NCBI GenBank assembly: GCA_050330055.1 | Contig: JBHJOF010000078.1 | Location: 21,300 to 85,299 of the forward strand | Origin: Kiloniellales bacterium | GTDB lineage: Bacteria; Pseudomonadota; Alphaproteobacteria; Kiloniellales; JAKSDN01 | Direction of reading: 5' to 3' | DNA length: 64,000 nucleotides | Shown here: piece by piece, positions 9,721 to 29,161 of the stretch | Position numbering within the stretch: position 1 is the first letter of the stretch | Layout of the letters: each line of letters opens with the position of its first letter | Made by a program: the position numbers and the translations under genes | Notes under the pieces: generated by a model | What the model was told of the DNA's origin: nothing | The model's input: the letters and a program-made list of their open reading frames with translations, nothing else | Databases searched by the model: none

Positions 9721-9775
9721 GATGTTCCGTTATCTCCCGTATCAAAACCAAGTCAGTCGGCGCATGGCGGGCCGG

Positions 9776-11839: not shown

Positions 11840-12040
11840 GGGCGGTCACCAGGTTTTGTGTATCACTGCCGTTGGCAGTCGCGGTCTGGATCAAGTTCGA
11901 GGCCCGCCGGGAGTTCGGCTGGGTTTGGCCCGGATCTGCCATCTGCGGGTCCGTTATGGACCTGGTGTTCCTGGCCGTGCTCGAGACTGGGAGCGGTCGT
12001 CCAGCGACGCTCGAGAAGCCAGGCAGGGAGATGTCCAAGG

Positions 12041-15569: not shown

Positions 15570-17528
15570 TCAATCGTTGCCGTTCCCGCGCTCGCCGCCG
15601 GGGTTCCCGGTCTCGGCAACGACCACCGAATTACGGGGGCGATTCTGGTGCCATTCCCAAACCCACACCGCCCCGCCCAGCACCAAGCCCACGCCCATCA
15701 GATCGGCCCGGTCCAGCGCGCCCGCGGTCAGCAGGACGAAGCCGCTGACGGCGAGCACGATCCGCTCGTAAACCCTGAGCGGTCTGACGAGCCACCCCCA
15801 GAAAGCGGCCGCCAGCATCGTAAGGCCGGCCAAGACCCCGAGAAACGCGAAGAGCATCGGCAGGCTGATCTTCGGGAACTCAAGAAGCACAGGGTTTAAA
15901 ATGAAGACGTACGGGACGGCGAGCGCGACGAACGCGAGCCTCAGCGCGCGACCGCACACCTGCCAGAAGTCGGCTCCGGCGATCCGGGAGGCGGCCTGGG
16001 CGGTGATGGCGATCGGCGGCATCAGGGTGGCGAAGACCGCGAAATAGTAGATGAACATGTGCGACGCCACGGGGTCGAAGCCGATCTCCACTAGGTACGG
16101 CGCCAGGGCCAGCGCCATGAGGATGTAGGCGGCGGCCTCGATGATGGCGAGGCCGGTGACAAGCGTGCAGAGCATGACGAGCGGCAGCGCTATGATCAAT
16201 ATTTGGCCGACCGGGCTGATGATGAGATTGGTCGCAAGGTTCACCCCGAAGCCCGTCGTCATGGCCGTCTGGGACACCGGGCCGATGACTGCCAGGAGCA
16301 AGCCCAGGGTCGCGCAGGTCTTGGCCCCGTCGAGCAGACCCAGAAATATCTCGCGAACCGGCGGGCGGTACTTGCCCTGGATCAGCAGCGCTGCGGCCGT
16401 CGCTCCGATGAGGGCCCAGAACCCGGCCAGCTTCGCGGTGTAGAACAACAAAAGGAACGTGGCCAGAATTCCGATGCCGATCAGGAAGGTGGGGAAGCAT
16501 CGGGCCACCAGGTTCCAGTCGACCCGCTCTTTCACGCGCGGGAAGCCGGACACGCGGGCGTTGAAGTAAATCCCGAGGCCGACTCCAGCATAGTAGAGAA
16601 TGGCTGGAATCGTGGCCGCGAGCGCCACCTGGATGTACGGCATGTTCAGGAAGAATGCCATGACGAAGGCGCCGAGGCCCATGATGGGAGGCATGATGAG
16701 GGCCCCCGCCGAGGCCGAGGACTCGACGGCGGCGGCCATCGCGGGTGGCAGGCCCTGTTTTTTCATCATCGGAATGGTGACCCGGCCCGTGATGATCACG
16801 TTCGCCACGGCCTGGCCGACCATCGTCCCGACGGTGGCGCTCCCGATCAGCGCGGGGTAGGCCGCCCCGCCGCTGATCCGTTGGCCCACCGCCTTGCCAA
16901 ACTCGAGCAGCGCGCTGACCGTGCCGGTCCTGGCCAGCACCGCGCTGAGCAGCAGCACGTAAAAGATCACGTCGGTCGTAAGCGGTATCAGCCAGTAGGT
17001 CCCGAAAACGGGATGCATCGTCGTATAGCTCAGGACCCAGCCGAGCCCGTAATCCTGGTGCCCCCAGAAACCGGGCAGAATGTGCCCGAACAGGAAGTAG
17101 CCGACGGCGAGCACGACGAAACCGACCAGGACCTTCCCCCAGACGTAGTAGCCGGCGATACAGAGCGCGATCAGAGCGCTGACACCGACCACCTTGTCCA
17201 CCGGGTTCAGCAGCCCCACCTCGGTCTCCAGGCGCAGGACGTTCGCATGAACGTAAGCTGCCGAGAACACGCCGGCGACCAAGGCGAAGGTGAGGAGGGC
17301 AAACTTTACGGTGAGGGATAGCCGGGAGCGCTCGTTGTCCTCTCTCAGGGTCTCCGCCATGTGCATCAGGATCGCCATTGAGAAGACGGCGCCGAAAAAG
17401 CTCGCGAAATGCTCCGATACCCCGAGGAGCGGGTGCCAGACGATGAACAACTGGTAGACGACCAGCAGCCCGGCCTCGACGTTCACGATCATGTCGATGA
17501 TCCGCGCCGCCTTTTCCCTTGGCGTCAT
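15570..17528 (-). CDS. TRAP transporter fused permease (4TM/12TM fusion, TAXI-type system)
   Basis: 652-aa protein that is hydrophobic throughout. Size and architecture match the fused DctQM-type permeases that pair with TAXI receptors. Confidence 0.88.
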   Translation of the reverse strand: MTPREKAARIIDMIVNVEAGLLVVYQLFIVWHPLLGVSEHFASFFGAVFSMAILMHMAETLREDNERSRLSLTVKFALLTFALVAGVFSAAYVHANVLRLETEVGLLNPVDKVVGVSALIALCIAGYYVWGKVLVGFVVLAVGYFLFGHILPGFWGHQDYGLGWVLSYTTMHPVFGTYWLIPLTTDVIFYVLLLSAVLARTGTVSALLEFGKAVGQRISGGAAYPALIGSATVGTMVGQAVANVIITGRVTIPMMKKQGLPPAMAAAVESSASAGALIMPPIMGLGAFVMAFFLNMPYIQVALAATIPAILYYAGVGLGIYFNARVSGFPRVKERVDWNLVARCFPTFLIGIGILATFLLLFYTAKLAGFWALIGATAAALLIQGKYRPPVREIFLGLLDGAKTCATLGLLLAVIGPVSQTAMTTGFGVNLATNLIISPVGQILIIALPLVMLCTLVTGLAIIEAAAYILMALALAPYLVEIGFDPVASHMFIYYFAVFATLMPPIAITAQAASRIAGADFWQVCGRALRLAFVALAVPYVFILNPVLLEFPKISLPMLFAFLGVLAGLTMLAAAFWGWLVRPLRVYERIVLAVSGFVLLTAGALDRADLMGVGLVLGGAVWVWEWHQNRPRNSVVVAETGNPGGERGNGND

Positions 17529-17760: not shown

Positions 17761-18843
17761 CTACTCGCCCACCGCGACGGGCTTCCAGATCTTTTCCGGC
17801 GGCCACATGTCGGCTTCCACGAAGGCCTTCTTCGCGCCCGGATGGATGTTGTCCTTGTACGTCCAGTCGAAAGCGAAGGGCGAGACCATCGTCTGAGGAG
17901 TCCAGAGTTGGCCGATAGTGCTCATCGCGCCGGCTTTGGGTCCGATCTCGATGAACGCCTTGGTCAGCTCGTAGGCCAACTCCTCCGGGAAGTCCTTGTG
18001 CACGCTCCGGGTGCCGATGTCCGCAAAGATATTGAACGGCTCGGGTTGATTGGGCAGCGTGTTGGGTGGGAGCTCAACGGAGTACAACGGTACGCCGGTA
18101 TCCTTGACGAGCTTGTTAATGATGTCCGGCGGCCACTCCAGCATGTGGTAGCTCCTGCCCGAGGCGGCGATCCGCGTCACGGTGGGACCGACCTGGATCT
18201 TCGTTACTGGCGGCACGTTCACGTTGCACGACAGCATCGCGGCCTTGACCTTGCCGTCGAAGAGCGCATCCAGCGCCTTCACCGGTCCGAGGCTTTGGAG
18301 CGGTGCGTTGTCGTAAGTCATCCCGTATGCTTTATCGAGCACGAAGGACAGGAGACCGCCCCAGTGGGTCTGCGTCTTGAGGCCAACGCCGATCGGCTGT
18401 CCCTTGAGGTCTTCGACCTTCTTGATGTTTTCATCAAACGTGACAAGCCAGACTTGCCCGAGCATGTATTCCCCAAAGAGGTGGAGAAAGTCGTCGCACG
18501 GCAGCGGCTCGGGGAAGAAGGGCTTGTAGGCGTTCTCGGCGAGATATATGGCCCCGGTCGAGGAGCCGAAGGTTGCGGTCTTCTGCAGGTTCTTGTCCGT
18601 CGCCATGACCTTCAGGTTGTGCACGTAGCCGCCGGTTTCCTGCTGCACGGGCCGCAGCCACTCGTGGTTCTGGGCGACGAAGCGGTCGAAGATGATGAAA
18701 CCCTCCCAGCCGCCGCCCAGCGGATACTGGAGGAAGGGCACCCGCACCTCATCACGTGCGGCTAGGCGAGCCGGCCAGGCCCCGACGGCCAAGGGCGCCG
18801 CCGCCAGTGCCATCTTGGTTACCTGTCTGCGTGTGTACCTCAT
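17761..18843 (-). CDS. TAXI-family TRAP transporter solute-binding protein (Tat/Sec signal)
   Basis: The start was moved to MRYTRRQVTKMALAAAPLAVGAWPARLAA (GGAGG sits 8 nt upstream). Size and sequence style fit the TAXI (immunogenic-protein) receptor family. Confidence 0.8.
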   Translation of the reverse strand: MRYTRRQVTKMALAAAPLAVGAWPARLAARDEVRVPFLQYPLGGGWEGFIIFDRFVAQNHEWLRPVQQETGGYVHNLKVMATDKNLQKTATFGSSTGAIYLAENAYKPFFPEPLPCDDFLHLFGEYMLGQVWLVTFDENIKKVEDLKGQPIGVGLKTQTHWGGLLSFVLDKAYGMTYDNAPLQSLGPVKALDALFDGKVKAAMLSCNVNVPPVTKIQVGPTVTRIAASGRSYHMLEWPPDIINKLVKDTGVPLYSVELPPNTLPNQPEPFNIFADIGTRSVHKDFPEELAYELTKAFIEIGPKAGAMSTIGQLWTPQTMVSPFAFDWTYKDNIHPGAKKAFVEADMWPPEKIWKPVAVGE

Positions 18844-19012
18844 TTTCGTCACCTCCTAGTGAGATCCGTATTCAGGATACGACGGCGGGTTCACGCCAAT
18901 CGGGCGAGGCGCCCTGCAGGCCGATCTGGAACTCAACCGTTGAGCGCTTGGACAGGAGCTTCTTCCAAAGCTCCCTGCCTTTAATCACGCCGCCCGACCT
19001 GGATTCGGTGAA

Positions 19013-19156
19013 TTAGGGCTGATAGACGACCGTCTGCTCGACGGGGTCCCCGACGTTTCCATACCTTTGCGCCGCGGCCGGCTAAACCGCGCAAACGGCA
19101 GCGCCTCCCAAAAGGAATACGCTAACGCAAAGGATCCTGTTCAATTTCATTGGCAT
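19013..19156 (-). pseudogene. Mini-ORF with very strong SD encoding a signal-peptide-like 24-mer, then an in-frame TAG, then 22 more sense codons to a TAA
   Basis: GGGAGGAAACC-ATG, then MPMKLNRILCVSVFLLGGAAVCAV-TAG-PAAAQRYGNVGDPVEQTVVYQP-TAA, read from the reverse strand. The TAG is at 19084-19082. Confidence 0.3.
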
Positions 19157-19802
19157 GGTTTCCTCCCTTTGTTCTTCTGTCGCCGGACTAGCGGTCTTGT
19201 TGTCGCCGGGATGTTGTGCTCGGATCACCTTTCGTCGATCGCGTTTCGGCTGCTGGACGCACGCTTTGCGCCGCTTCTACATCCGCCCGCAACATTGCGC
19301 GCAGCATGTGGCAATATGGCGCAGCGCCATCAGAGTAGTTCAATAGATGCTTGTATAACAGGCAAGTACGCTACGGCGCTTTTGTAAATTCGTTCTTTCT
19401 GATGATTCCATACGCACCGGCTATGGCTGTAACGGGAGCAGCAATAAGTGGTTGCCGAGGCTGGTTCGGCCGCGGGCCAGCAAGGCCCGCCGGGCGGGCC
19501 GAGGCGTGCGCCGGCGATATGGCGCCGGCAGGCCGCGCCGCCGACTGCCGCTCCCATCTATCACCCGATAAATACTTTCGATTTTACCTGACAGGGCGAC
19601 TTGCTGATGGTTCCCATAGAAGGCCCTGCTTGCGGCGCGACGATGCTGGCGGCGCTCGCCCTGTTGGTATGCCAGCTGGCGCCTGCAACCCTGGCAGGAG
19701 CCGACCGCAGCCGGGTGGAAGATCGGCCCGGGCGGCGGGCGGCCGAGGCATCCTGAACTCGAGGCATCTTGAACTGAGGACTCTGCACCAAGGAGATGGG
19801 CG

Positions 19803-21038
19803 ATGGCCAGGACAGCGAAGCAGTGGAATCGCAAGCCTGACTTGAACGCGGTCGAGTATGTCGATAGCCGAATCTACACCGATGAGGCGATCTTCGAGCA
19901 GGAGCTCGAGAAGATCTGGAAGAGGACCTGGGTCCTGGCCTGCCACGAGTCCGAGCTCCCGGCGGCCTACGACTTCCGGACCATGACGATCGCCCGCGAG
20001 CCGATCGTCATCTGCCGCGGCGAGGACGAGAAGGTGCGCGCCTTCCTCAACGTCTGCCCGCACCGGGCGAACCTGATCGTGCGGGCGCCGGCCGGCAGCT
20101 TCGCCGTCGGCGAGCCCTCCGGCAATCCCAAGCGCATGACCTGCATGTTCCATGGCTGGCAGTTCAGCATGAAGGGCGAATGCACCGAGATCACCCGCAT
20201 GAAGCAGGGCTACCAGGAGCGGCTCGGCAAGGACGACGTCAGCCTGCGCGAGCTGCGTTGCGAGGTAGGATACGGCGGTTTCGTCTGGGTCACCCTGGAT
20301 GACGAAGCGATGTCACTCAGGGACTTCGTCGGCTCTTCGCTCGACTTCCTGATGACCGAGCTGGAGAGCGAGCCGCTCGAGGTCTTCCACTATCACAAGT
20401 CGATCATCGACTCGAACTACAAGCTGTGGCACGACACCAACAGCGAATTCTACCACGACTACATGCACTACCATAACCGGGTCACCAGCATGATGCAGCC
20501 CGGCTACTTCGACCGAAAATACACCGCTTTTGCCAACGGCCATGCCTCGGTCGGCTCGATGGAGGTGAGGTACGACGCCTACCACGGCTTCCAGAGCCGC
20601 GACCTGTCGTTCCCGGGCATGCCGCGCAACGGCTGGAAGATGGTCGACATGTTCCCCGGTTATACCTACAACCTGCGCGGCTCCTCCCTGCGCATCGACA
20701 CCATGACGCCAATCAGCGCCAACAAGGTCATGATCGAGTTCCGCGGCCTCGGCCTCAAGAAGGACACTCCGGAAGAGCGACGCCAGCGCATCCGGGACCA
20801 CAACACCATCTGGGGTCCCTTCGGCCGCAACCTGCACGAGGATCTGCTCGGCATCACCGGTCAGGGCGTGGCCATGCGTCCGCACCAGGAGACGCGCTAC
20901 GTGCTGCACGGGCGGCACGAGGACAACACGATTCACGACGAGATCGGCATGCGCCACTACTACGAGGAATGGAGCCGCCGGATGGGAATCTCGCCGATCG
21001 ATCCGGCCGTGAAGCTGGCAAGCGCCGCGGCGGAATAA
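19803..21038 (+). CDS. msmA: Rieske non-haem-iron oxygenase large subunit, methanesulfonate monooxygenase MsmA-like
   Basis: 411 aa with AAGGAG 7 nt upstream. The Rieske motif is CPH-(26 aa)-CMFH (nt 20055-20153), the unusually long spacer reported for MsmA. A mononuclear Fe region is present (NSEFYHDYMHYH). Confidence 0.8.
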   Translation: MARTAKQWNRKPDLNAVEYVDSRIYTDEAIFEQELEKIWKRTWVLACHESELPAAYDFRTMTIAREPIVICRGEDEKVRAFLNVCPHRANLIVRAPAGSFAVGEPSGNPKRMTCMFHGWQFSMKGECTEITRMKQGYQERLGKDDVSLRELRCEVGYGGFVWVTLDDEAMSLRDFVGSSLDFLMTELESEPLEVFHYHKSIIDSNYKLWHDTNSEFYHDYMHYHNRVTSMMQPGYFDRKYTAFANGHASVGSMEVRYDAYHGFQSRDLSFPGMPRNGWKMVDMFPGYTYNLRGSSLRIDTMTPISANKVMIEFRGLGLKKDTPEERRQRIRDHNTIWGPFGRNLHEDLLGITGQGVAMRPHQETRYVLHGRHEDNTIHDEIGMRHYYEEWSRRMGISPIDPAVKLASAAAE

Positions 21039-21100
21039 GGCGCGAGACCCCTGGGCTCGCCGGTGGCGGCCGGTCCGGAGTCAGTTGGGAGGACACGAAA

Positions 21101-21601
21101 GTGGCTAAGAATGGCGCGGACCTGGAGTCGTCGGTTAGGGACTTGATCTATCGCTCCGTCGTCCTGATGGACGGACAGCAGGTCACCGAATGGCTCGAAG
21201 CGCTCTGCACGCCCGACTTCGAGTACCTGATCACCGCCTATAGCCATGAGATCAGGCGCGAGCAGGAATGGTTCCATGGCCGGCGCGACGAGCTGCTCGA
21301 CGTCGTCAAGATGATGCCCTACCACAACACCGACCACTCGCCCTTCACCCGGCATGTCAGCGTCTACACGGTCGACATCGACGAGTCGGGTAAGACCGCC
21401 GAGGCGATCAGCTCGCTGGTCGTCTATCAGAACATGTTCGACGGCATCAACTCGCACCTCGATTCGGGCGAGACGCGCCTGTTCTGCTCCGGCAAGTACT
21501 ACGACCGGGTGAGCCTGGAGGGCGATCGGCCGCGCCTGCTGCAGCGCAATGTCAGGCTGGATACCCGGCGCCTCGACAAGGGCTCGCATTTTCTCCTGTG
21601 A
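21101..21601 (+). CDS. msmB: Oxygenase small (beta) subunit, MsmB-like
   Basis: GTG start with GGAGGA 8 nt upstream, 166 aa (~19 kDa). The position and NTF2-like beta-subunit size match MsmB. Confidence 0.7.
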   Translation: MAKNGADLESSVRDLIYRSVVLMDGQQVTEWLEALCTPDFEYLITAYSHEIRREQEWFHGRRDELLDVVKMMPYHNTDHSPFTRHVSVYTVDIDESGKTAEAISSLVVYQNMFDGINSHLDSGETRLFCSGKYYDRVSLEGDRPRLLQRNVRLDTRRLDKGSHFLL

Positions 21602-21645
21602 GGTCGGTGGGGCCAAAATTCGAAGAGGGAGCGGAAACGTCCTTT

Positions 21646-21981
21646 ATGGGTTGGAAATACGTTTGCAAGGCCGATGAGCTGCAGGATCGCGGCCTGAAGC
21701 AGTTCGAGGTCGAGGGCGTGCCGATCCTGTTGGCGCGCCTGGGTGATGACTTCTTCGCCTACCCGCCGCTCTGCCCGCACCAGGAGGAGGTGCTGGCCGT
21801 CTCCGGCGTATGCGACGGCTCCACGCTCACCTGCACCAAACACCTCTGGCAGTGGGATATGCGCACCGGAAGCGAGATCGGATTGGCGGAAAAGCCGCTG
21901 CTCATGTACCAGGTGCGGCAGGACGGCAACGACGTCTCCGTCCTGATAGAGCAGGAGCTGAAGTATGACTATGACGATTGA
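21646..21981 (+). CDS. msmC: Rieske-type [2Fe-2S] ferredoxin, MsmC-like
   Basis: MGWKYVCKADEL..., with CPH at LCPHQEE and C-x2-H at CTKHLW. An alternative GTG start at 21598 overlaps the msmB stop. Confidence 0.78.
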   Translation: MGWKYVCKADELQDRGLKQFEVEGVPILLARLGDDFFAYPPLCPHQEEVLAVSGVCDGSTLTCTKHLWQWDMRTGSEIGLAEKPLLMYQVRQDGNDVSVLIEQELKYDYDD

Positions 21982-22131
21982 TCCGGCGGCGATGGCGTCG
22001 CTGGCGAGGCACTAGAACCCGGATGCGACGACGCTGGCGCCCTGCACGGAACGGCAGGCGCCCTCGCGGAGGTTCTGCAGCAATCACTCTCGCCCGCGCG
22101 GCGATTCCGCAGGGAGGCTGGAGGAGAGGCC

Positions 22132-23211
22132 ATGAAGGCCGTGGATGCCAGGCGCGGTGAACCGGCGATGAAGATCCGGGCCCGCACCAAGGAAGGCGAC
22201 TTCGCCTTCTCCTGCGAGCCGGGTGAGCGGATTCTCTACGCCGGCCTGCGTAACGGCGTGCCTCTGCCGTACGAATGCGCGACCGGCACCTGCGGCACCT
22301 GCAAAGCGCGCGGCAATGGCGCTGCGATCGACGAGCTGTGGCGCGAGGCGCCGGGCCGCTCCTTCCTCAAGCCGGAGCGCGGCGAGTTCCTGATGTGCCA
22401 GTCGGTCAGCGGCGGAAGCTGCGAGATCGAGGTGCCGGCCCGGTTGCAGCAGGCGCCGATGGCGGCCATCACGCCCGACTACCGCCGCGGCCGGATCAGC
22501 GGCATCCGGCGCTTGACCCACGACGTCATTTTCTTCGAGCTCGGCCTCGAGCGGACGATGCGCTACCACCCCGGCCAGTTCGTGGTGATGCGGGCGCCGG
22601 GCGTCGAGGGCTTTCGCGCCTACTCGATGGTCAATCACGAAGCGGAGACCGATTTTCTGCAGTTCGTGGTCAAGCGCAAGCCTCATGGCGCCTTCTGCGA
22701 CTGGCTGTTCGGCTGGCCCGCCGAGGGCACGGAGGTCGAAATATTCGGGCCGCTCGGCCGCGCCGTGTTCGACCCGGCGGAGGGCAAGAACCTGCTGGCG
22801 ATCGCCGGCGGATCGGGCATTGCCGGCATCATGGCGATCCTGGCCCGGGCCCGGCAAGGCGGCTACTTCGCCGCGCATAAGGGGGCCGTCTTCTTCGGCG
22901 TGCGTGGCTTGGCCGACGGCTTCTTCCTGGACGAGCTCGCTGACCACGTGGCCGCGGCGGCGGGGAACTTGAGCGTCACGGTCGCGCTCTCGCACGAAGA
23001 CCCGCCCGGCGGCGCGTACCCGGGCTATCCGAGTCTCGCCGCGGCCAGCGGCTTCGTGCATGTCGTGGCCGCCCAGAGCATTGCCCGGCATAGGGACAAT
23101 GCCGTCGCCTTTGTCGCCGGTCCACCGCCCATGGTCGATGGCGCCCTGCGTATGCTGATCATCGAGGCGCGCCTGCCGGCGGGCGACATCCGCTACGACA
23201 AGTTCGGCTGA
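22132..23211 (+). CDS. msmD: Plant-type [2Fe-2S] ferredoxin-NAD(P)H reductase component, MsmD-like
   Basis: N-terminal CATGTCGTC...C ferredoxin motif, an FNR-like flavin block (RAYSM), and an NAD block (LLAIAGGSGIAG). GGAGGAG sits 5 nt upstream of the ATG. Confidence 0.85.
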   Translation: MKAVDARRGEPAMKIRARTKEGDFAFSCEPGERILYAGLRNGVPLPYECATGTCGTCKARGNGAAIDELWREAPGRSFLKPERGEFLMCQSVSGGSCEIEVPARLQQAPMAAITPDYRRGRISGIRRLTHDVIFFELGLERTMRYHPGQFVVMRAPGVEGFRAYSMVNHEAETDFLQFVVKRKPHGAFCDWLFGWPAEGTEVEIFGPLGRAVFDPAEGKNLLAIAGGSGIAGIMAILARARQGGYFAAHKGAVFFGVRGLADGFFLDELADHVAAAAGNLSVTVALSHEDPPGGAYPGYPSLAAASGFVHVVAAQSIARHRDNAVAFVAGPPPMVDGALRMLIIEARLPAGDIRYDKFG

Positions 23212-23227
23212 TGCACGGAGACGTGAG

Positions 23228-23674
23228 ATGGTTGACAGTGCCGACTTGACCGAGCGCCTGCAGAGGGCCGACTTCCTGCGCGACGTATCACCCGCCAGCC
23301 TCGCCAAGATCGCGCGCATCGCCGAGCGCGAGAGCTTCGCCGAGGGCGATGCGATCTATCAGCTCGGCGATCCGGCCGAGGACCTCTTCATCGTCGAGTC
23401 GGGCCGTATCCGCTTCGCGCTCGGCGTCGGCAACCGCGGCGGGACCAGTGGCTCGGTCATTTCCCAGGGCCAGGTGGTCGGCTGGGCCGCCGTGCTCGAG
23501 GACCAGCCGCGCCTGCTGGCCACGGCCGTTTGCCTCGAGGACTCCCAGGTCATCCGGATCAACGGCGCCAAGCTGCTCGCCGTCTTCGACCACGATACGA
23601 CCTCGGGCTATGCGGTGATGCGGCGCCTCGCCACCATGATCGCGCACGACCTGACCGAGGTGCTGACTGCTTGA
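23228..23674 (+). CDS. Stand-alone cyclic-nucleotide-binding (CAP effector) domain protein, no DNA-binding domain
   Basis: 148 aa, starting 16 nt after msmD. Typical blocks FAEGDAIYQLGDPAEDLFIVESGRIRF and GQVVGW.. are present. It ends before any HTH. Confidence 0.78.
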   Translation: MVDSADLTERLQRADFLRDVSPASLAKIARIAERESFAEGDAIYQLGDPAEDLFIVESGRIRFALGVGNRGGTSGSVISQGQVVGWAAVLEDQPRLLATAVCLEDSQVIRINGAKLLAVFDHDTTSGYAVMRRLATMIAHDLTEVLTA

Positions 23675-24121
23675 GCGCCGCGTCCGACCGCCGCCGGCCT
23701 ACAGTCGGATGTCTCACGACGGTGTGATGATGCAGTCCGGCGCGTCGATACCTAGCGTCAATGAAACAATATTGAGCATGAAATTGACGCTTCCTCGCTT
23801 CCCTAGCACGCTTTGTCGTTCGCTGGTGACGGTGGGGACTGCGGCCACGCCCGTGGCGGATGGGCAACGGGCAGGGCGGCCGTCCTTAGACCCAAATGTC
23901 AACTTCCATCGATAACAGTCGATGATGAATCGTCCGGCCACGACAATCGGGCCCATAAACGGGGTCCGCGACACTAGGGAGGGACAAATATGGGCGCAGG
24001 GTTTGGCCCTGATGCGTACGACGAAAAAACCCGTCGCATGATTCAGGGGATGATCGAAGCCGAGCAGCAGGCACTCGCCGCACGCAAGGCCGAGCTCGAG
24101 GACTGCGAGTGCAAGGAGGGC

Positions 24122-25384
24122 ATGTTTCCCAATCCGGGCCGGCGCGGCCTCCTGATGGGAGCGGCTGCCCTGGGCGGTGCGCTCTTGGCCGGGCGCGCGG
24201 CGCAGGCGGATGCGCCGCCCGGCGCCATCGAGTATCCCGAGCTGCCGGATCCGACCAAGGCACTGGGCCGGCCGGTCAATGCCAACGGCGGCTATGGAAC
24301 GCGCGCGCAGTTCGAATCCGAGGTGCGCTGGCGTTTCCCGACGGCCACCGAGGAAACCTCCTGGACCATGACGCCGCTCGACAAGAGCCAGGGCATCATC
24401 ACGCCGTCCGGACTGCACTTCGAGCGCCATCACGGCGGCGTGCCGGTGATTGATCCGGCCAAGCACAGGCTGCTGGTGCACGGCGTGGTGAAGCAGCCCA
24501 AGATGTTCACCATGGCCGATCTGAAGCGCTATCCCTCGGTCTCGCGCATGTACTTCATCGAGTGCTCGGGCAACGGCCTGACGGAATGGAGCAAGCCGAC
24601 ACTGAAGACGGTGCAGGGTACGCATGGGCTGACCAGCACCTCGGAGTGGACCGGGATTCAGCTTTCGACCATTCTTGCCGAATGCGGCCTGCAGGACGGT
24701 GCCGCCTGGGTCCTGGCCGAGGGCGCCGACGCAGCGGTCATGACCCGCAGCATTCCGCTCGACAAGTGCATGGGTGATGCCATTCTGGCCTTCGGCCAGA
24801 ACGGCGAGATGCTGCGGCCCGAGCAGGGCTATCCGCTGCGCCTGCTGCTGCCGGGCTGGGAAGGCAACACGCACATCAAGTGGCTGCGCCGCCTCGAAGT
24901 CAGCGACAAGCCCTTCATGAGCCGCGAGGAGACCTCCAAGTACACGGACCTGCTGGCCGACGGCAAGGCGCGGCAGTTCTCCTTCACCATGGAGGCCAAG
25001 TCGGTCATCAACTTCCCGTCGGGCGAAATGAAGCTGCCCGGACCGGGCTTCTACGAGATTACCGGCCTCGGCTGGTCCGGGCGCGGCCGGGTCGAGCGCG
25101 TCGAGGTCTCGACGGATGGGGGCAAGTCGTGGGGCGTGGCTTCGCTGCAGGACCCCATCATGCCGATCTGCCACACGCGCTTCCGCTTCCCCTGGGTGTG
25201 GGACGGGCAGCCGACCGTGCTGCAGAGCCGTTGCACTGACGAGACGGGCTACGTGCAGCCGACCTTGAAGCAGTTGGTCGAGGTGCGCGGCCTGAACGGC
25301 CCGATCGGCTCGATCTATCACCTGAACGCCATCCAGAGCTGGGCGGTGGCAAGCGATGGGAGCGTCAGCAATGTCCACGGGTAA
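24122..25384 (+). CDS. Molybdopterin sulfite dehydrogenase catalytic subunit (SoxC/SorA-like), Tat-exported
   Basis: Tat signal GRRGLLMGAAALGGALLAGRAAQA. Family blocks: FERHHGG, YFIECSGNG, GYPLRLLLPGWEGN, and a C-terminal dimerisation domain. The start was chosen at 24122 (AAGGAGG 3 nt upstream). An in-frame alternative at 23990 also has a strong SD. Confidence 0.88.
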   Translation: MFPNPGRRGLLMGAAALGGALLAGRAAQADAPPGAIEYPELPDPTKALGRPVNANGGYGTRAQFESEVRWRFPTATEETSWTMTPLDKSQGIITPSGLHFERHHGGVPVIDPAKHRLLVHGVVKQPKMFTMADLKRYPSVSRMYFIECSGNGLTEWSKPTLKTVQGTHGLTSTSEWTGIQLSTILAECGLQDGAAWVLAEGADAAVMTRSIPLDKCMGDAILAFGQNGEMLRPEQGYPLRLLLPGWEGNTHIKWLRRLEVSDKPFMSREETSKYTDLLADGKARQFSFTMEAKSVINFPSGEMKLPGPGFYEITGLGWSGRGRVERVEVSTDGGKSWGVASLQDPIMPICHTRFRFPWVWDGQPTVLQSRCTDETGYVQPTLKQLVEVRGLNGPIGSIYHLNAIQSWAVASDGSVSNVHG

Positions 25385-25946
25385 GATGAAGCTGGGCCTG
25401 ACCGCGCTTGTCGCTGGCTTGGCCCTGGGTGCCAGTCACGCCTGGTCGGGTGGCGGCTATCAGGTCACCTATGGTTTCGGCCAGCCGGCGAGCGAGGCCG
25501 AAATCGCCGCCCTGGCGATCGCGATTCCGCCTGACGGCGAGCACCTGCCGCCGGGCAGCGGCACCTGGGAACAGGGTAAGCAGGTTTACGTCGAGAAGTG
25601 CGCGGCCTGCCATGGCGAGCAACTCGAGGGCGTGAAGGAGACCGGCGGCGATCCCCTGATCGGCGGCCGTGGCTCGCTCGACAGCGGCAGCCCGAAGAAG
25701 ACGGTCGAGAGCTTCTGGCCCTATGCCACAACGGTATTCGATTTCGTGCGCCGGGCCATGCCCTTCGCCGAGCCGGGCTCGCTCACCGACGACGAGGTCT
25801 ATGCCGTGACAGCCTACATTCTCGCCGAGGGCGACATCATCGCCAAGGACCAGATGATGAACGCGGAGACGCTGCCCAAGGTGCAGATGCCGAACCGGGA
25901 CGGCTTCATCCCGGATCCTCGGCCGGACGTCTTCAACTACAACTAA
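25371..25946 (+). CDS. Mono-haem cytochrome c subunit of the sulfite dehydrogenase (SoxD/SorB-like)
   Basis: Signal peptide MSTGKMKLGLTALVAGLALGASHA and a single CAACH haem motif. It overlaps the end of the Mo-subunit gene. Confidence 0.85.
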   Translation: MSTGKMKLGLTALVAGLALGASHAWSGGGYQVTYGFGQPASEAEIAALAIAIPPDGEHLPPGSGTWEQGKQVYVEKCAACHGEQLEGVKETGGDPLIGGRGSLDSGSPKKTVESFWPYATTVFDFVRRAMPFAEPGSLTDDEVYAVTAYILAEGDIIAKDQMMNAETLPKVQMPNRDGFIPDPRPDVFNYN

Positions 25947-26210: not shown

Positions 26211-27107
26211 CTATTCGGCGGCAGTGCCGAGCTGCTTCAGCTTCGAGCCCCACTTCATCTGCTCAGCGAATTTGCGCAGCTCGTCGGCCGACATGTAGAC
26301 GGTATGCTCAGGTCCGGGATAAGTGCGGCTGCGAACGTCGTCCATGTAGCGCGTGATCACGTCTTCCATGATCGGGATCAGGTCGGTGTAGATCTTGGAG
26401 TGGCGCGGTACGTGCTCTTCCCAGAGATGGAACAGGTCAGAGCTGATGATGTGCACGCCATGCGCCTTGTTGCCGGCGCCCAAGCTGATGACCGGTACCG
26501 GCAGGGTCTCGGTCAGGTACTCGCAGACCTCCTCGGTCGTCACCTCGCAGAGGATCGAGAAGCAGCCGGCGTCGACCATGGCCAGCGCATCATCGATCAG
26601 CTCCTTGGCCCGGTCCGAGGTCTTGCCCTGTGCCACGAAGCCGCCGAGCTGCGGCATGCGCATCGGCGTGATACCGATGTGTCCCTGGACCGGGATGCCG
26701 GCCTTGACGATCGCCTCGATGTTCCGGGCGTGGTGCTGGTTGCCCTCACACTTCATCACTTCCGCGTTGGCCTCGTGGCAGAAGCGGCCGGCGTTCTCGA
26801 CCGCCTGCTCCGGCGAGATGTGGAAGCTCCAGTAGGGCATGTCGACCATGCGCAGGCCGTATTTGCTGCCGCGGTCGATCGCTTTCGACATCATCATGAC
26901 CTCGTCGAAGCTGACCGTCACCGTGCTCTGGTGGCCGAACAGGATCATGCCGCCGGTGTCCGACACGCAGAGGATGTCCATGCCGAGCCGGTCGGCGACC
27001 ACCGCGGTGCGATAGTCGTAGACCGCCATCTGGGTGATCGCCTCGCCCTCGTGCATCTTCTTCATGAGGCTGTTGATCGTGACTTTCTTTCTTTTCGTTT
27101 CGGCCAT
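26211..27107 (-). CDS. 3-methyl-2-oxobutanoate hydroxymethyltransferase family protein (PanB-like paralogue, longer C-terminus)
   Basis: Trimmed to MAETKRKK... (GGGAGGA 5 nt upstream). PanB-type blocks: ILCVSDTGGM, VDMPYWSF, KCEG, PVQGHIGITPM. It is 298 aa, versus the roughly 265-275 aa I recall for canonical PanB. Confidence 0.8.
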   Translation of the reverse strand: MAETKRKKVTINSLMKKMHEGEAITQMAVYDYRTAVVADRLGMDILCVSDTGGMILFGHQSTVTVSFDEVMMMSKAIDRGSKYGLRMVDMPYWSFHISPEQAVENAGRFCHEANAEVMKCEGNQHHARNIEAIVKAGIPVQGHIGITPMRMPQLGGFVAQGKTSDRAKELIDDALAMVDAGCFSILCEVTTEEVCEYLTETLPVPVISLGAGNKAHGVHIISSDLFHLWEEHVPRHSKIYTDLIPIMEDVITRYMDDVRSRTYPGPEHTVYMSADELRKFAEQMKWGSKLKQLGTAAE

Positions 27108-27368
27108 GGTGTCCTCCCTGGCGTGTCCGCACGAGATGCTTTGCACGGCCGACTGCAGGCGTATCGTCCCGGCGTGGCCGGCCATGGTTGTCAGCAAAGA
27201 AAGATAGGCAGAAACTATAAAAGCTTCGGCTCTTTCTTGCCATTATTAAGAAAACTATCTAGACGACACTACATCAACTGGCGCAGAGAGAACAACTCCC
27301 CTGCTTATATTTATTGACTATAGTTCGTTCACTGGAGACTATTAAGCGGCCAGCCTGTGAGATGGGCG

Positions 27369-28394
27369 TCAGAGGGGGCGCCAGTCAGCGCTCCAGTCGC
27401 CCCGGGGCCGCCGCTTCTCGGTGTCGTAGAACGGCAGAGGCACGACCTCCAGGTCCCGGAACAGTCCGCAGGAGTCCGAGAGACGACGACCTGTCTGGGC
27501 ATCGGCTGGAAGGACGTAGCCGAGAGCCAGAACGCCGTTGGCGAGCGGGCTCCAGCAGGCCGAGGTGATGGCGATGCAGCCGGGCTCCTGAGGCGGGCTC
27601 AAGGTTTTGGGTGGCTGCCACAGCAGGGGCCGTTCGTCGGCTGCGCGGCGGACGCAGACCAGGCGCATTTGCGGCGCTGCAGCGGCCGGACTCGCGAACT
27701 GCGCCAAGCCCGCTTCCTCGGCGGTGACCGGCAAGGCGAACTCGTTGACGAAGAGCGCCAGGCCCGCCTCGATGCGCAGACGGTCGGCTGCTGCGACGCC
27801 GGCCGGCCGGGCCCGCTCGGCCAGCTGCGCCCAAACCGCTTCGGCCTGCGCGCGCGGCAGCACCAGCTCGAAGCCGCGTTCGCCGCTGTAGCCCAGCCGG
27901 CCGACCCGGCAGGACACGCCGGCCACCTCGGCCTCGCCGTGGCCGAAGTAGGGGAGGCGAGACAGACGTTCGAGGTCCGCCAATCCCTCGAGCGCGCGCA
28001 GGGCGTTCGGTCCCTGCAGGGCATAGATGGCGGTATCCTCGGTCAGATCTTCGAAGCTGTCGGTGCGCGCCAGCTCTGCCAGCTCTGCGAGATCGGTGGG
28101 CCGGCCGGTCATGACCTCGAAGCTACCGTCGCCCAGGTTCCAGATCGTCAGGTCGGATACGAGCGAGCCGTCCGGACGGGCGTGCAGCGCGTAGGCGATG
28201 CGTCCGGGTGCCAGCCGATCGAAGGATCGCTTGGTGAAGCCGCTCAGGACGGCGGCGGCGTGCGTCCCGGTGATGCGTGCCCGCGCGACGAAGGAGAAGT
28301 CGAACAGGGCGCAGTCGTTGCGGCAGGCCGCGGCCTCGCCGTCGGGGTCGCCGTAGTCGGCGACGAAGCGGCGTCCGAAGGGCAGGGCCGCCAT
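27369..28394 (-). CDS. GcvT-family aminomethyltransferase / folate-binding protein
   Basis: Trimmed to MAALPFGRRF... (ATG at 28394, 5 nt after the tauE-family stop). Blocks: ALFDFSFVARARITG and RLGYSGERGFELVLP. Confidence 0.82.
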   Translation of the reverse strand: MAALPFGRRFVADYGDPDGEAAACRNDCALFDFSFVARARITGTHAAAVLSGFTKRSFDRLAPGRIAYALHARPDGSLVSDLTIWNLGDGSFEVMTGRPTDLAELAELARTDSFEDLTEDTAIYALQGPNALRALEGLADLERLSRLPYFGHGEAEVAGVSCRVGRLGYSGERGFELVLPRAQAEAVWAQLAERARPAGVAAADRLRIEAGLALFVNEFALPVTAEEAGLAQFASPAAAAPQMRLVCVRRAADERPLLWQPPKTLSPPQEPGCIAITSACWSPLANGVLALGYVLPADAQTGRRLSDSCGLFRDLEVVPLPFYDTEKRRPRGDWSADWRPL

Positions 28395-28399
28395 GCCGC

Positions 28400-29161
28400 T
28401 CAGCCGCCGATCAGGCGCCAGCCGATCTGCACGAGCAGCCAGAGGCCGACCAGGATCAGGACCTGCGCCACGATGCGTCGCAGCAGCGCGAGCGGCAGCT
28501 TGTGCGCGAGCTGTGCGCCGATCGCCGAGCCCAGTGCGAGCCCGGTGGCAATCGTCGCGCCCAGCACCAGGTCGAGGCTGCCGTAGATCAGGTTTCCGGC
28601 CGTCGCCAGCGCGGCTATCGGCAGCTGGATCGCCTGGCTCAGTCCGATCGCGGTCAGGATCGGCAGCTCGAGCCAGATCAGCAGCGGCACCAGCACCAGG
28701 GGGCCGCCGGTTCCACTTAGCGCCGAGGCGAAGCCGGTGACGGCGCCGGTGGCCAGCAGCCAGGGGCGGGCGAAGCCGGACTCCGATCCATCCTTCTTCG
28801 CCTCGGGTCGCCAGGCGCGGATGCCCGCCATCAGGATCAGCGCCGCGATGACGAGCTCGAGCAGCGTCGCGTTCACGACGTTGCTCGCCCAGGAGCCGGC
28901 AAAGGCGGCCGGCATGGCGCCGGCGCAAAGCCAGATCGCCATGGGCCAGCGGATCGAGCCGTGCCGCGCGAAGATCACCGCGCCGATCAGGCCGGTCAAG
29001 AGATAGCTGAACATGGCGGCGGCGATCGCGGTGCGGATGTCGATGCCGCCCAGGTAGATCAGGGTCGGCACCAGCAACACGCCGCCGATCCCTATGCAGC
29101 CGATCAGCCCACCGACAAGGATGGCGAAAAGTGCAAGCGCCAGGAGCGCGGCCGTGGTCAT
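28400..29161 (-). CDS. TauE/SafE-family (DUF81) sulfite/sulfonate exporter
   Basis: 253 aa, about 7-8 TM, with the internally duplicated Gly-rich pattern typical of the family (GIGGVLLVP ... GTGGPLVLVP). Confidence 0.82.
   Translation of the reverse strand: MTTAALLALALFAILVGGLIGCIGIGGVLLVPTLIYLGGIDIRTAIAAAMFSYLLTGLIGAVIFARHGSIRWPMAIWLCAGAMPAAFAGSWASNVVNATLLELVIAALILMAGIRAWRPEAKKDGSESGFARPWLLATGAVTGFASALSGTGGPLVLVPLLIWLELPILTAIGLSQAIQLPIAALATAGNLIYGSLDLVLGATIATGLALGSAIGAQLAHKLPLALLRRIVAQVLILVGLWLLVQIGWRLIGG

What the first reader, a model, noticed from the sequence alone, without database searches (positions are those of the whole stretch)
19803..23211. Four-component oxygenase with the MsmA hallmark Rieske motif C-x-H-x26-C-x2-H
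The large subunit reads CPH-RANLIVRAPAGSFAVGEPSGNPKRMT-CMFH. I counted exactly 26 residues between the two Cys/His pairs (nt 20055-20153). Ring-hydroxylating oxygenases normally have 16-18. The 26-residue spacer was reported as the peculiarity of methanesulfonate monooxygenase MsmA. The gene order also matches msmABCD: large subunit, ~19-kDa small subunit, Rieske ferredoxin, then a [2Fe-2S]-FNR reductase. Such operons are usually annotated only as generic aromatic-ring-hydroxylating dioxygenases.
Basis: partly seen in the sequence, partly recalled or inferred. Interest (0 to 1): 0.6.

Follow-up and report, generated by a model that had tools for sequence, protein, structure and literature searches.

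The report
Methanesulfonate monooxygenase operon with swapped transporter
This is a genuine four-gene methanesulfonate monooxygenase operon (msmABCD), labelled in GenBank only as a generic aromatic dioxygenase; the enzyme is an ordinary family member, but its usual ABC importer has been replaced by a TAXI-TRAP transporter, leaving a dead stub of the old gene.

Summary
ORF 19803-21038 encodes a 411-aa Rieske oxygenase alpha subunit with C-P-H-x26-C-M-F-H at nt 20055-20153. It is followed by a 19-kDa beta subunit, a Rieske ferredoxin and a Fer2-FAD-NAD reductase.

All 119 relatives carrying the 26-residue spacer form one clade, and JGI names many of them methanesulfonate monooxygenase. Every protein at 45% identity or less has 16-19 residues.

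The operon sits in a sulfite and C1 island: SoxCD, TauE, AprBA-AprM, Sat, a GcvT-like and a PanB-like gene, and a LysR regulator. This accessory set matches the proven degrader Filomicrobium strain Y.

Only an msmE stub remains (18908-19156, two in-frame stops). A TAXI-TRAP pair follows it directly. Close homologues of that binding protein are rare and lay beside msm or sulfite-handling genes in all 7 contexts examined. This makes it a candidate for the "alternative MSA transporter" the literature has asked for.

Verdict: the enzyme is a new member of a known kind. The transporter swap is a modest, testable novelty. No biochemistry was possible, and the Methylosulfonomonas M2 reference sequence could not be obtained.

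The parts
19803..21038 (+). msmA: hydroxylase alpha subunit, 411 aa, 47.8 kDa. Rieske ligands C85, H87, C114, H117 with a 26-residue spacer (nt 20055-20153). The 9-residue insertion is A95-G103 (nt 20085-20111). Probable Fe ligands are H218, H222 and D379; the probable bridging carboxylate is E215.
   Evidence: Rieske 61 bits; Ring_hydroxyl_A 27.6 bits; C85, H87, C114, H117, H218, H222 and D379 invariant in 103 sequences; E215 in at least 90%; inside the n=26 clade; AlphaFold pLDDT 89.7.
21101..21601 (+). msmB: hydroxylase beta subunit, 166 aa, 19.3 kDa. Start is GTG with a GGGAGG ribosome-binding site. The longer ATG 20969 start would overlap msmA and is unlikely.
   Evidence: SnoaL_4, Ring_hydroxyl_B; tblastn matches in 80 loci begin near this start.
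21598..21981 (+). msmC: Rieske-type [2Fe-2S] ferredoxin (CPH-x17-CTKH). The start is either GTG 21598, overlapping the msmB stop, or ATG 21646. Homologues align from 21646.
22132..23211 (+). msmD: NADH-dependent reductase with a plant-type [2Fe-2S] domain plus FAD- and NAD-binding domains. 359 aa, or 347 aa if it starts at 22168.
   Evidence: (MmoC/BenC-like).
18908..19156 (-). msmE pseudogene stub. It keeps the ribosome-binding site, the ATG, the signal peptide and residues 12-87 of a 393-aa MsmE. It has two in-frame stop codons. The rest of msmEFGH is gone.
   Evidence: tblastn with MsmE of L001: 49% identity over 76 aa, E = 3e-15; the L001 query genes are NMT1-type binding protein, permease, ATPase, permease.
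17761..18843 (-). TAXI-family TRAP solute-binding protein (360 aa, RR-containing signal peptide). It starts 64 bp after the msmE stub, on the same strand. Candidate methanesulfonate-binding protein.
   Evidence: NMT1_3 56 bits; TIGR02122 54.7 bits, below its cut-off of 84.35; only 44 cluster representatives in the database; homologues beside msm genes; top fold matches are all TAXI binding proteins, TM 0.74-0.83, 16-18% identity.
15570..17528 (-). TRAP transporter fused permease (DctQM-type), 652 aa, partner of the TAXI binding protein.
   Evidence: (TIGR02123 361 bits, above its cut-off of 320.65).
23228..23674 (+). Protein made of a cyclic-nucleotide-binding domain only (148 aa), directly after msmD. 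It is a conserved partner of the operon and is fused to MsmC in the n=17 sister clade.
23990..25384 (+). SoxC-type molybdopterin sulfite dehydrogenase with a Tat-like signal peptide.
   Evidence: (TIGR04555 580.8 bits, above its cut-off of 420).
25356..25946 (+). SoxD-like cytochrome c, the likely electron acceptor of SoxC.
   Evidence: (co-located with msm in several loci); PMC4433239 Table 1.
26211..27197 (-). PanB-like (ketopantoate hydroxymethyltransferase family) paralogue, presumed to handle a C1/methylene-tetrahydrofolate step.
   Evidence: (72-87% identical across Alpha- and Gammaproteobacterial msm loci).
27369..28391 (-). GcvT-like folate-binding aminomethyltransferase, presumed to capture formaldehyde on tetrahydrofolate. 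The start codon is approximate.
   Evidence: GCV_T 174 bits.
28400..29161 (-). TauE/SafE sulfite exporter.
29385..30335 (+). LysR-family regulator, divergent from the TauE-GcvT-PanB genes.
7415..10561 (-). aprM-like membrane anchor (9776-10561), aprB (9259-9720) and aprA (7415-9259): adenylyl-sulfate reductase, the cytoplasmic sulfite-to-APS route.
   Evidence: (TIGR02061 956 bits; TIGR02060 201 bits).
11858..13213 (+). sat: sulfate adenylyltransferase (APS to sulfate plus ATP).

Best explanation
The block 19803-23211 is an msmABCD operon encoding methanesulfonate monooxygenase (MSAMO), a three-component Rieske non-haem-iron oxygenase built from four polypeptides.

Mechanism, inferred from the family:
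- NADH reduces MsmD (FAD, then its plant-type [2Fe-2S] cluster).
- MsmD reduces the Rieske ferredoxin MsmC.
- MsmC reduces the Rieske cluster of MsmA.
- That cluster feeds the mononuclear iron of the MsmAB hydroxylase (H218, H222, D379).
- O2 is activated there and the methyl group of CH3SO3- is hydroxylated. Hydroxymethanesulfonate then falls apart into formaldehyde and sulfite.

The surrounding 23 kb supplies the rest of the pathway, inferred from gene content.
- Sulfite is either exported by TauE and oxidised in the periplasm by SoxCD, or oxidised in the cytoplasm through AprBA/AprM and Sat, which yields ATP.
- The C1 unit is probably taken onto tetrahydrofolate by the GcvT-like protein, with a PanB-like partner.
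- A LysR regulator and a small cNMP-binding protein probably regulate the system.

Uptake differs from the described system. The divergent msmEFGH ABC importer was lost, and a 5' msmE stub with two stop codons remains. A TAXI-TRAP binding protein plus fused permease now sits directly behind that stub on the same strand. It probably uses the old msmE promoter and probably imports methanesulfonate.

Shown here: the motif, domains, clade membership, synteny, the stub, and the recurrence of the TAXI genes beside msm genes. Inferred: the substrate, the chemistry, the transporter's ligand, and its co-transcription.

The confidence of 0.85 refers to the enzyme assignment (MSAMO). For the TAXI-TRAP pair as the methanesulfonate importer I put it at about 0.6.
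For: - Motif and component sizes match the purified M2 enzyme. Sizes here are 47.8 / 19.3 / 12.7-14.4 / 37-39 kDa. M2 values are 48 / 20 / 16 / 38 kDa (PMC4433239, Introduction).
- Close relatives at 61-82% identity are named methanesulfonate monooxygenase large subunit by JGI. 119 of the 120 best hits carry the 26-residue spacer.
- The n=26 proteins form a single clade containing the window's protein. The nearest outgroups have n=17.
- The clade includes sequences from Filomicrobium, Hyphomicrobium and Methylobacterium, genera with proven MSA degraders (PMC4433239).
- The Rieske ligands and the putative iron ligands (H218, H222, D379) are invariant across 103 homologues. H218 aligns with the His at position 224 of PDB chain 1uli_A.
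- The A-B-C-D order recurs in the 80 related loci, together with PanB-like, GcvT-like, TauE, LysR, SoxCD and AprBA/Sat genes. This is the same accessory set as in Filomicrobium strain Y (PMC4433239, Table 1).
- SoxC, AprA, AprB, Sat and the TRAP permease pass their curated NCBIfam cut-offs.
- For the transporter:
  - The msmE stub scores E = 3e-15.
  - The nearest relative, L001 (82% identical MsmA), still has an intact divergent msmEFGH.
  - Seven contexts of TAXI homologues at 64% identity or more were examined. Five lie beside msmA-type genes (L081, L082, L085, L090, L091). One lies beside GcvT-TauE-cNMP-PanB (L084). One lies beside TauE (L092).
  - Homologues at 50-56% identity are not msm-linked.
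  - The literature states that transporters other than MsmE must exist (PMC5068391, Abstract and Discussion).
Against: - No biochemistry was done.
- The reference MsmA-D sequences of Methylosulfonomonas methylovora M2 or Marinosulfonomonas could not be retrieved, so no direct pairwise identity is available.
- Identity to sequences from genera with proven degraders is only 61-65%.
- Variovorax sp. WS11 carries msmABCD with the same x26 motif yet did not grow on methane- or ethanesulfonate (PMC7143210). The motif therefore does not guarantee growth.
- The n=17 sister clade shares the TAXI-TRAP, Apr and Sox context. The spacer may mark a lineage rather than a specificity.
- No serine-cycle or other methylotrophy genes were seen among the window genes scanned.
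- For the transporter, the evidence is association only. All solved ligand-bound TAXI proteins among the matches bind glutamate. 0 of 80 GTDB loci carry this TAXI beside msmA.
Confidence: 0.85

Rival explanations
1. The enzyme is a short-chain sulfonate monooxygenase of the MsmA clade, but its physiological substrate is not methanesulfonate. It could be ethane- or propanesulfonate, or another small sulfonate delivered by the TAXI-TRAP system.
For: The window's protein sits in a small subclade (P0001-P0008) separate from the sequences of cultured degraders. Its transporter differs from the MSA-linked MsmEFGH. The related n=17 clade with the same transporter has no known substrate. From memory, unverified here: the M2 enzyme also accepts C2-C4 alkanesulfonates.
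Against: A remnant of msmE shows that the locus descends from a canonical msm locus. The GcvT-like and PanB-like genes, and FolD in L081, point to a C1 product, that is formaldehyde from a methyl sulfonate. The spacer sequence is nearly identical to that of the whole clade.
Confidence: 0.1
2. The operon is what GenBank calls it: an aromatic ring-hydroxylating dioxygenase.
For: NCBI's name for the identical protein. Pfam Rieske and Ring_hydroxyl_A domains are present. The fold resembles terephthalate, biphenyl and naphthalene dioxygenases.
Against: All NCBIfam aromatic equivalogs are far below their cut-offs (116 bits or less against 600-830). PDB sequence matches cover mainly the N-terminal Rieske half, at about 99 bits. 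Structural neighbours are only 19-23% identical. No dihydrodiol dehydrogenase or ring-cleavage gene was found in the roughly 23 kb around the operon; the neighbours are sulfite and C1 genes instead. The spacer is 26 residues, not 16-18.
Confidence: 0.02
3. The enzyme is MSAMO, but the TAXI-TRAP pair is unrelated to it. It imports something else, and methanesulfonate enters through a transporter encoded elsewhere in the genome.
For: Only 64 kb of the genome is visible. The solved ligand-bound TAXI proteins among the matches bind glutamate. Other msm loci sit next to MFS transporters or none (PMC7143210). In Variovorax WS11, msmEFGH homologues lie elsewhere in the genome (PMC7143210).
Against: The TAXI gene occupies exactly the position and strand of the lost msmE, 64 bp after its stub. 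All 7 examined contexts of close homologues carry msm-cluster genes, in two different MsmA clades and in two different arrangements, divergent and co-directional. The subfamily is very small, about 30 cluster representatives at 64% identity or more.
Confidence: 0.3
4. The operon is functional MSAMO but does not support methylotrophic growth. It serves energy gain from sulfite oxidation, sulfur supply, or co-metabolism.
For: Variovorax WS11 with an x26 msmABCD did not grow on MSA (PMC7143210). No serine-cycle or RuMP genes were seen among the window genes scanned. Two sulfite-oxidising routes are present, one of which yields ATP.
Against: Folate-linked C1 genes are tightly associated with the operon. 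The rest of the genome is not visible. This rival concerns physiology only and is compatible with the enzyme assignment.
Confidence: 0.3

Closest known systems
Methanesulfonate monooxygenase MsmABCD of Methylosulfonomonas methylovora M2 (also Marinosulfonomonas TR3)
   Same: Four components in the same order and of the same sizes. The CXH-X26-CXXH Rieske motif is present in the alpha subunit. A transporter operon is transcribed divergently upstream of msmA (PMC4433239).
   Different: The upstream transporter is TAXI-TRAP, not the ABC system MsmEFGH, of which only a stub remains. The alpha subunit belongs to a separate subclade, 61-65% identical to sequences from degrader genera. Direct identity to M2 was not measured.
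msm region of 'Candidatus Filomicrobium marinum' strain Y (KM879220)
   Same: msmABCD plus LysR, TauE, GcvT-like, PanB-like, SoxC and SoxD within about 20 kb (PMC4433239 Table 1, compared).
   Different: Filomicrobium keeps msmEFGH and has further ABC genes. The window adds AprBA/AprM, Sat and a cNMP-binding protein, and uses TAXI-TRAP.
n=17 'MsmA-like' sister clade (P0103, loci L082 and L085; probably the short-spacer type the literature notes in Methylibium and Methyloversatilis)
   Same: 55-63% identical alpha subunit. Same TAXI-TRAP family, with Apr or Sox neighbours and the cNMP domain.
   Different: It lacks the 9-residue insertion. The gene order is A-B-D-(C fused to cNMP)-TAXI-TRAP. 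No member has been linked to growth on MSA (PMC4433239).
TAXI-TRAP transporters with solved binding proteins (Thermus TtGluBP 1us4/8u79; Vibrio cholerae VC0430 8s4j/9ibo)
   Same: Same fold (TM 0.80-0.83 normalised to the target) and a fused DctQM-type permease.
   Different: Only 16-18% identical, with no match by sequence search. The known ligand is glutamate, whereas here the gene context predicts a sulfonate.
FMNH2-dependent alkanesulfonate monooxygenases MsuD/SsuD
   Same: They also convert methanesulfonate to sulfite and formaldehyde (PMC8234197).
   Different: They are unrelated two-component flavin enzymes used for sulfur scavenging, with no Rieske or iron centre. None was seen in this locus.
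Terephthalate dioxygenase TPADO, salicylate 5-hydroxylase NagGH and carnitine oxygenase CntA (nearest solved structures)
   Same: Rieske domain plus catalytic domain fold (Foldseek E about 1e-28, TM 0.7-0.84).
   Different: 19-23% identity, spacer of 16-18 residues, different substrates.

Membership tests
Methanesulfonate monooxygenase (MsmABCD) | Alpha subunit with the Rieske motif CXH-X26-CXXH | tested here: met
   CPH-x26-CMFH, aa 85-117. The 9-residue insertion relative to n=17 relatives is shown.
Methanesulfonate monooxygenase (MsmABCD) | Alpha subunit falls in the clade of x26 sequences, apart from other Rieske oxygenases | tested here: met
   The 119 n=26 proteins are monophyletic in a neighbour-joining tree and the window's protein is nested inside. 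Everything at 45% identity or less has n=16-19. The tree is NJ only, with no bootstrap.
Methanesulfonate monooxygenase (MsmABCD) | High pairwise similarity to the biochemically characterised M2 (or TR3) MsmA-D | not tested
   The reference sequences could not be obtained: the paper is not held and the sequences were not among the named hits. The only proxy is 61-65% identity to MsmA of Filomicrobium, Hyphomicrobium and Methylobacterium genomes.
Methanesulfonate monooxygenase (MsmABCD) | Four components: alpha, beta, Rieske ferredoxin and [2Fe-2S]-flavin reductase, encoded as msmABCD | tested here: met
   The order is conserved in related loci.
Methanesulfonate monooxygenase (MsmABCD) | Intact 2-His-1-carboxylate iron site and Rieske ligands | tested here: met
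   C85, H87, C114, H117, H218, H222 and D379 are invariant in 103 homologues. H218 aligns with His224 of PDB 1uli_A. Assigning these residues as iron ligands rests on family knowledge.
Methanesulfonate monooxygenase (MsmABCD) | Adjacent, divergently transcribed msmEFGH ABC importer (typical of the locus, not of the enzyme) | tested here: not met
   only a 76-codon msmE stub with two stop codons remains, and no MsmF or MsmH homologue is in the window. 48 of 80 related loci have an MsmE-like gene next to msmA, in nearly all cases with msmF, G and H.
Methanesulfonate monooxygenase (MsmABCD) | NADH-dependent release of sulfite and formaldehyde from methanesulfonate | not testable with these tools
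   Needs an enzyme assay.
TAXI-type TRAP transporter | TAXI-fold periplasmic binding protein | tested here: met
   Pfam NMT1_3 56.4 bits, above its cut-off of 27. The seven best Foldseek matches are all TAXI-type binding proteins or structures with the same fold. TIGR02122 scores only 54.7 bits, below its cut-off of 84.35, so this is a divergent member.
TAXI-type TRAP transporter | Fused DctQM-type membrane component encoded next to the binding protein | tested here: met
   TIGR02123 TRAP_fused 361.3 bits, above its cut-off of 320.65.
TAXI-type TRAP transporter | Ligand identity (methanesulfonate proposed) | not testable with these tools
   Only genomic association is available.
Aromatic ring-hydroxylating dioxygenase (the GenBank label) | Match to a curated aromatic dioxygenase alpha-subunit model above its cut-off; spacer of 16-18 residues; neighbouring dihydrodiol dehydrogenase or ring-cleavage genes | tested here: not met
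   best 115.6 bits against a cut-off of 830; n=26; neighbours are sulfite and C1 genes.

The most novel reading that the evidence does not exclude
The TAXI-TRAP pair (15570-18843) is a methanesulfonate importer. To my knowledge that would be the first TAXI-type TRAP system assigned to a sulfonate, and it would be the 'alternative MSA transporter' that amplicon surveys inferred but never identified. It displaced msmEFGH in situ and moves as a cassette between the x26 MsmA clade and its x17 sister clade. That in turn would imply that the x17 enzymes also act on methanesulfonate, so the 26-residue spacer would not be the specificity determinant it is taken to be.
Probability: 0.45. Interest if true: 0.55.

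Novelty: new member of a known kind. Interest (0 to 1): 0.35.

Why it matters
Methanesulfonate is a major atmospheric oxidation product of dimethylsulfide, and MSAMO is the known route by which bacteria use it as a carbon and energy source.

Three practical points follow.

1. NCBI names this protein, and many relatives, as a generic aromatic dioxygenase. NCBIfam has no MsmA model: the best hits are far below their cut-offs. Genome surveys that rely on those names will therefore miss MSA degraders. At least 581 stretches in the collection of GTDB species-representative genomes encode a relative. A simple rule would fix this: the x26 motif plus clade membership.

2. msmE has been used as an environmental marker and was found unreliable (PMC5068391). 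This locus shows one concrete reason, replacement of msmEFGH by TAXI-TRAP, and provides a candidate gene to test.

3. The tight linkage with SoxCD, AprBA/Sat, TauE, and the GcvT-like and PanB-like genes outlines a complete and testable route from MSA to sulfate and to a folate-bound C1 unit.

Tried and rejected
- **M2 or TR3 reference sequences.** De Marco 1999 is not held, by PubMed id or by PMC id. The supplements of PMC4433239 hold only tables. A third database search, seeded with the Methylobacterium nodulans plasmid MsmA, returned no hit named for Methylosulfonomonas.
- **A solved MSAMO structure.** None was found by sequence or by fold.
- **Promoter and terminator scan of 18800-19850.** There was no sigma-70-like site and one terminator-like hairpin, no more than expected by chance. 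This was uninformative.
- **An msmE stub in other TAXI-linked loci (L081, L090, L091, L092).** None was detected at E below 1e-3. The scar is so far specific to this window.
- **Other copies of msmE, F or H in the window.** There are none. The only hits are generic ABC ATPase matches to MsmG.
- **Literature on MSA with TAXI or TRAP.** No paper links them.
- **Spurious ORFs.** The long ORFs that the ORF listing reports inside 18853-19802 (for example 19351-19845 and 19421-19834) and those antisense to msmA-D are artefacts of high G+C content. They were rejected because they fail the GC3/GC2 coding-bias filter, or overlap the msmE stub.
- **ATG 20969 as the msmB start.** It overlaps msmA by 70 nt and homologue alignments do not cover that extension, so GTG 21101 is preferred.

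Full report
**Observation**

The ORF 19803-21038 (+) encodes 411 aa. Its only Rieske-type motif is CPH-RANLIVRAPAGSFAVGEPSGNPKRMT-CMFH, at aa 85-117 and nt 20055-20153, with exactly 26 residues between the two ligand pairs. Compared with the n=17 relative P0103 and with BphA1 of PDB 1uli, the extra length is a single 9-residue insertion, A95-G103.

Three genes follow:
- A beta subunit. GTG 21101, preceded by GGGAGG, gives 166 aa and 19.3 kDa. Domains are SnoaL_4 and Ring_hydroxyl_B.
- A Rieske ferredoxin, 21598 or 21646 to 21981, with its own spacer of 17.
- A Fer2-FAD-NAD reductase, 22132-23211.

The calculated masses are 47.8, 19.3, 12.7-14.4 and 37-39 kDa. The purified Methylosulfonomonas enzyme has 48, 20, 16 and 38 kDa (PMC4433239, Introduction).

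**Is it MsmA or just another Rieske oxygenase?**

- The identical protein exists in GenBank in a Kiloniellales MAG, named 'aromatic ring-hydroxylating dioxygenase subunit alpha'. Relatives at 61-82% identity (609-824 bits) are repeatedly named 'methanesulfonate monooxygenase large subunit' by JGI.
- By contrast, the best solved Rieske oxygenase scores about 99 bits, mostly over the N-terminal half. NCBIfam's aromatic equivalogs reach 116 bits at most against cut-offs of 600-830.
- NCBIfam has no model that this protein reaches at its cut-off, which explains the generic name.
- An AlphaFold model (pLDDT 89.7) finds terephthalate dioxygenase, NagGH and CntA as nearest structures, at only 19-23% identity. 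I found no solved MSAMO.

**Is the 26-residue spacer specific?**

- Among the 120 best hits, 119 have n=26 and one (P0103) has n=17.
- I ran an exhaustive HMMER search of 1.84 billion cluster representatives. n=26 appears only in proteins at roughly 50% identity or more. All proteins at 45% identity or less with a recognisable motif have 16-19 residues.
- In a neighbour-joining tree of 183 sequences, 119 n=26 proteins form one clade with the window's protein nested inside (subclade P0001-P0008). The immediate sister is a small n=17 group (P0103, P0124, P0131, P0145). Next come n=17 proteins at about 40% identity.
- The x26 clade reaches down to 53% identity in Burkholderia sp. RPE67 plasmid p3. 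There the depositors call the genes methanesulfonate monooxygenase.
- The literature gives the same rule: 26 residues in every strain shown to grow on MSA, 16-18 in other oxygenases (PMC4433239).

One gap remains. I could not obtain the M2 or TR3 reference sequences, so no direct identity figure exists. The proxy is 61-65% identity to MsmA in Filomicrobium, Hyphomicrobium and Methylobacterium genomes.

**Surroundings**

The operon lies in a 23-kb sulfur and C1 island:
- aprA 7415-9259, aprB 9259-9720 and an AprM/QmoC-like anchor 9776-10561, all on the minus strand.
- sat 11858-13213.
- A TRAP fused permease 15570-17528 and a TAXI binding protein 17761-18843, both on the minus strand.
- msmABCD.
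- A 148-aa cNMP-binding protein 23228-23674.
- SoxC 23990-25384 (TIGR04555 581 bits, Tat-like signal) and SoxD 25356-25946.
- On the minus strand, a PanB-like gene 26211-27197, a GcvT-like gene 27369-28391 and TauE 28400-29161.
- A divergent LysR regulator 29385-30335.

LysR-TauE-GcvT-PanB-SoxC-SoxD is the accessory set listed beside msm in the proven degrader Filomicrobium strain Y (PMC4433239, Table 1). In 80 related loci from GTDB genomes these genes recur next to msmABCD, and AprBA/Sat recurs in several. This context fits an enzyme that releases sulfite and a C1 unit. It does not fit aromatic catabolism.

- The described system has a divergently transcribed ABC importer, msmEFGH. An MsmE-like gene is present in 48 of the 80 loci, in nearly all of them with msmF, G and H. 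These include the closest relative, L001 (82% identical MsmA), where the four genes are an NMT1-type binding protein, a permease, an ATPase and a permease.
- In the window, the 950-bp 'intergenic' stretch upstream of msmA contains a relic of msmE at 18908-19156 (-). It keeps the ribosome-binding site, the ATG, the signal peptide and residues 12-87 of 393. Identity is 49% and E = 3e-15. Two in-frame stop codons interrupt it, and nothing beyond residue 87 remains.
- No MsmF or MsmH homologue is in the window.
- Sixty-four bases after the relic, on the same strand, the TAXI gene begins with its own AGGAGG.
- The simplest reading is an in-situ replacement of msmEFGH by a TAXI-TRAP cassette that now sits behind the old msmE promoter. 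Co-transcription is inferred, not shown.

**Is the TAXI-TRAP pair connected with MSA?**

- The binding protein belongs to a very small subfamily. There are 44 cluster representatives in a 5.8-billion-protein collection, about 30 of them at 64% identity or more.
- I read seven distinct contexts of those close homologues. All seven carry msm-cluster genes:
  - L081, L090 and L091: divergent from an x26 msmA.
  - L082 and L085: downstream of an x17 msmA-like operon.
  - L084: next to GcvT-TauE-cNMP-PanB.
  - L092: next to TauE.
- Two homologues at 50-56% identity are in unrelated carboxylase/IclR contexts.
- The protein has no solved relative by sequence. Its model (pLDDT 88.6) matches the solved TAXI-type binding proteins at TM 0.74-0.83 and 16-18% identity. 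Those solved with a ligand hold glutamate.
- The permease passes the TRAP_fused cut-off.
- Henriques and De Marco concluded that transporters alternative to MsmE must exist at sea (PMC5068391). I found no paper linking MSA with TAXI or TRAP.
- Other msm loci carry MFS transporters instead (PMC7143210). The uptake module is evidently interchangeable, and TAXI-TRAP is a further, apparently undescribed, option.
- This remains guilt by association.

**Mechanism**

The following is established for the family and inferred here. NADH reduces MsmD, which reduces MsmC, which reduces the MsmA Rieske cluster. That cluster feeds the mononuclear iron. H218, H222 and D379 are invariant in 103 homologues and E215 is conserved in at least 90%. 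H218 aligns with the His at position 224 of 1uli_A.

Hydroxylation of the methyl group gives hydroxymethanesulfonate, which decomposes to formaldehyde and sulfite. Sulfite then has three outlets encoded here: TauE export followed by periplasmic SoxCD, or cytoplasmic AprBA plus Sat with ATP gain. The GcvT-like folate-binding protein probably traps the C1 unit. The role of the PanB-like protein is unknown.

**Caveats**

- Variovorax WS11 has an x26 msmABCD but did not grow on MSA (PMC7143210).
- The x17 sister clade shares the transporter, Apr or Sox neighbours and the cNMP domain. The spacer may therefore mark a lineage rather than determine specificity.
- No methylotrophy genes were seen among the window genes scanned.
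- The tree is neighbour-joining without bootstrap support.

**Verdict**

The enzyme is a new member of a well-known family that is widespread: at least 581 matching stretches in GTDB species genomes. One annotation pipeline already recognises it. The surprise value is therefore low. The added value is the documented transporter replacement, with its msmE scar, and a concrete candidate for an MSA-specific TAXI-TRAP system.

Noticed in passing
window 23228-23674 (+); L082 6653-7384; L085 2917-3648: A 148-aa protein made only of a cyclic-nucleotide-binding domain follows msmD. It recurs next to msmD in about 17 of 80 related loci. In the x17 sister clade it is fused to the Rieske ferredoxin MsmC (243 aa, Rieske + cNMP_binding). 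This is a Rosetta-stone hint of a functional link with the electron-transfer chain. Its role is unknown.
   Followed up: partly
window 26211-27197 (-): The PanB-like gene is 72-87% identical across Alpha- and Gammaproteobacterial msm loci. It is thus better conserved than MsmA itself (61-70%). It only just reaches the TIGR00222 panB cut-off (210.6 against 207.55) and misses that of NF001452. It looks like a dedicated paralogue of the MSA pathway rather than a pantothenate-synthesis gene.
   Followed up: partly
L082 3902-11290; L085 218-6815; protein P0103: A sister clade of MsmA lacks the 9-residue insertion (CPHRGNTILYDPSGNAKRMTCIFH, n=17). Its gene order is A-B-D-(C::cNMP)-TAXI-TRAP. It sits next to AprBA (L082) or a SoxD fragment (L085). 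With the same context as the x26 clade, it may also be a sulfonate oxygenase.
   Followed up: partly
L081 2627-3532: In one TAXI-linked x26 locus, a FolD gene (methylene-tetrahydrofolate dehydrogenase/cyclohydrolase) is inserted between msmC and msmD. This supports a folate-linked fate for the formaldehyde.
   Followed up: no
window 7415-13213: An oxidative-type aprBA with an AprM/QmoC-like anchor, plus sat, lies 2-8 kb beyond the TRAP genes. The same Apr genes sit next to msm genes in L002, L005, L008, L014, L082 and L090.
   Followed up: partly
window 15098-15301 (+); L082 11447-11785; L084 3399-3722; L091 6484-6813: A small Cys-rich DUF6455-like ORF follows the TRAP permease in several TAXI loci. 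In the window, a weak homologue lies convergent to the permease. Function unknown.
   Followed up: no
window 32262-36582 (+): nosR (NF046105, 844 bits, below its cut-off of 1000) and nosZ (nitrous-oxide reductase propeller and cupredoxin domains) lie just downstream of the island. The organism probably reduces N2O.
   Followed up: no
L088 (Burkholderia sp. RPE67 plasmid p3), L089 (Methylobacterium nodulans pMNOD01): x26 msm operons occur on plasmids, 5 of the 7 matching plasmids being classed conjugative. They sit next to MFS transporters rather than msmEFGH, and IS66 elements lie nearby in pMNOD01. Both the operon and its uptake module appear mobile.
   Followed up: partly
L082 13025-17849: The same metagenomic contig carries a second, more distant TAXI-TRAP pair (33-35% identity) with a HAD hydrolase and a Crp-family regulator.
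   Followed up: no
protein P0343: Another Kiloniellales MAG encodes an MsmA from a different subclade, 74% identical to the M. nodulans protein. msm genes within this order are therefore not monophyletic.
   Followed up: no
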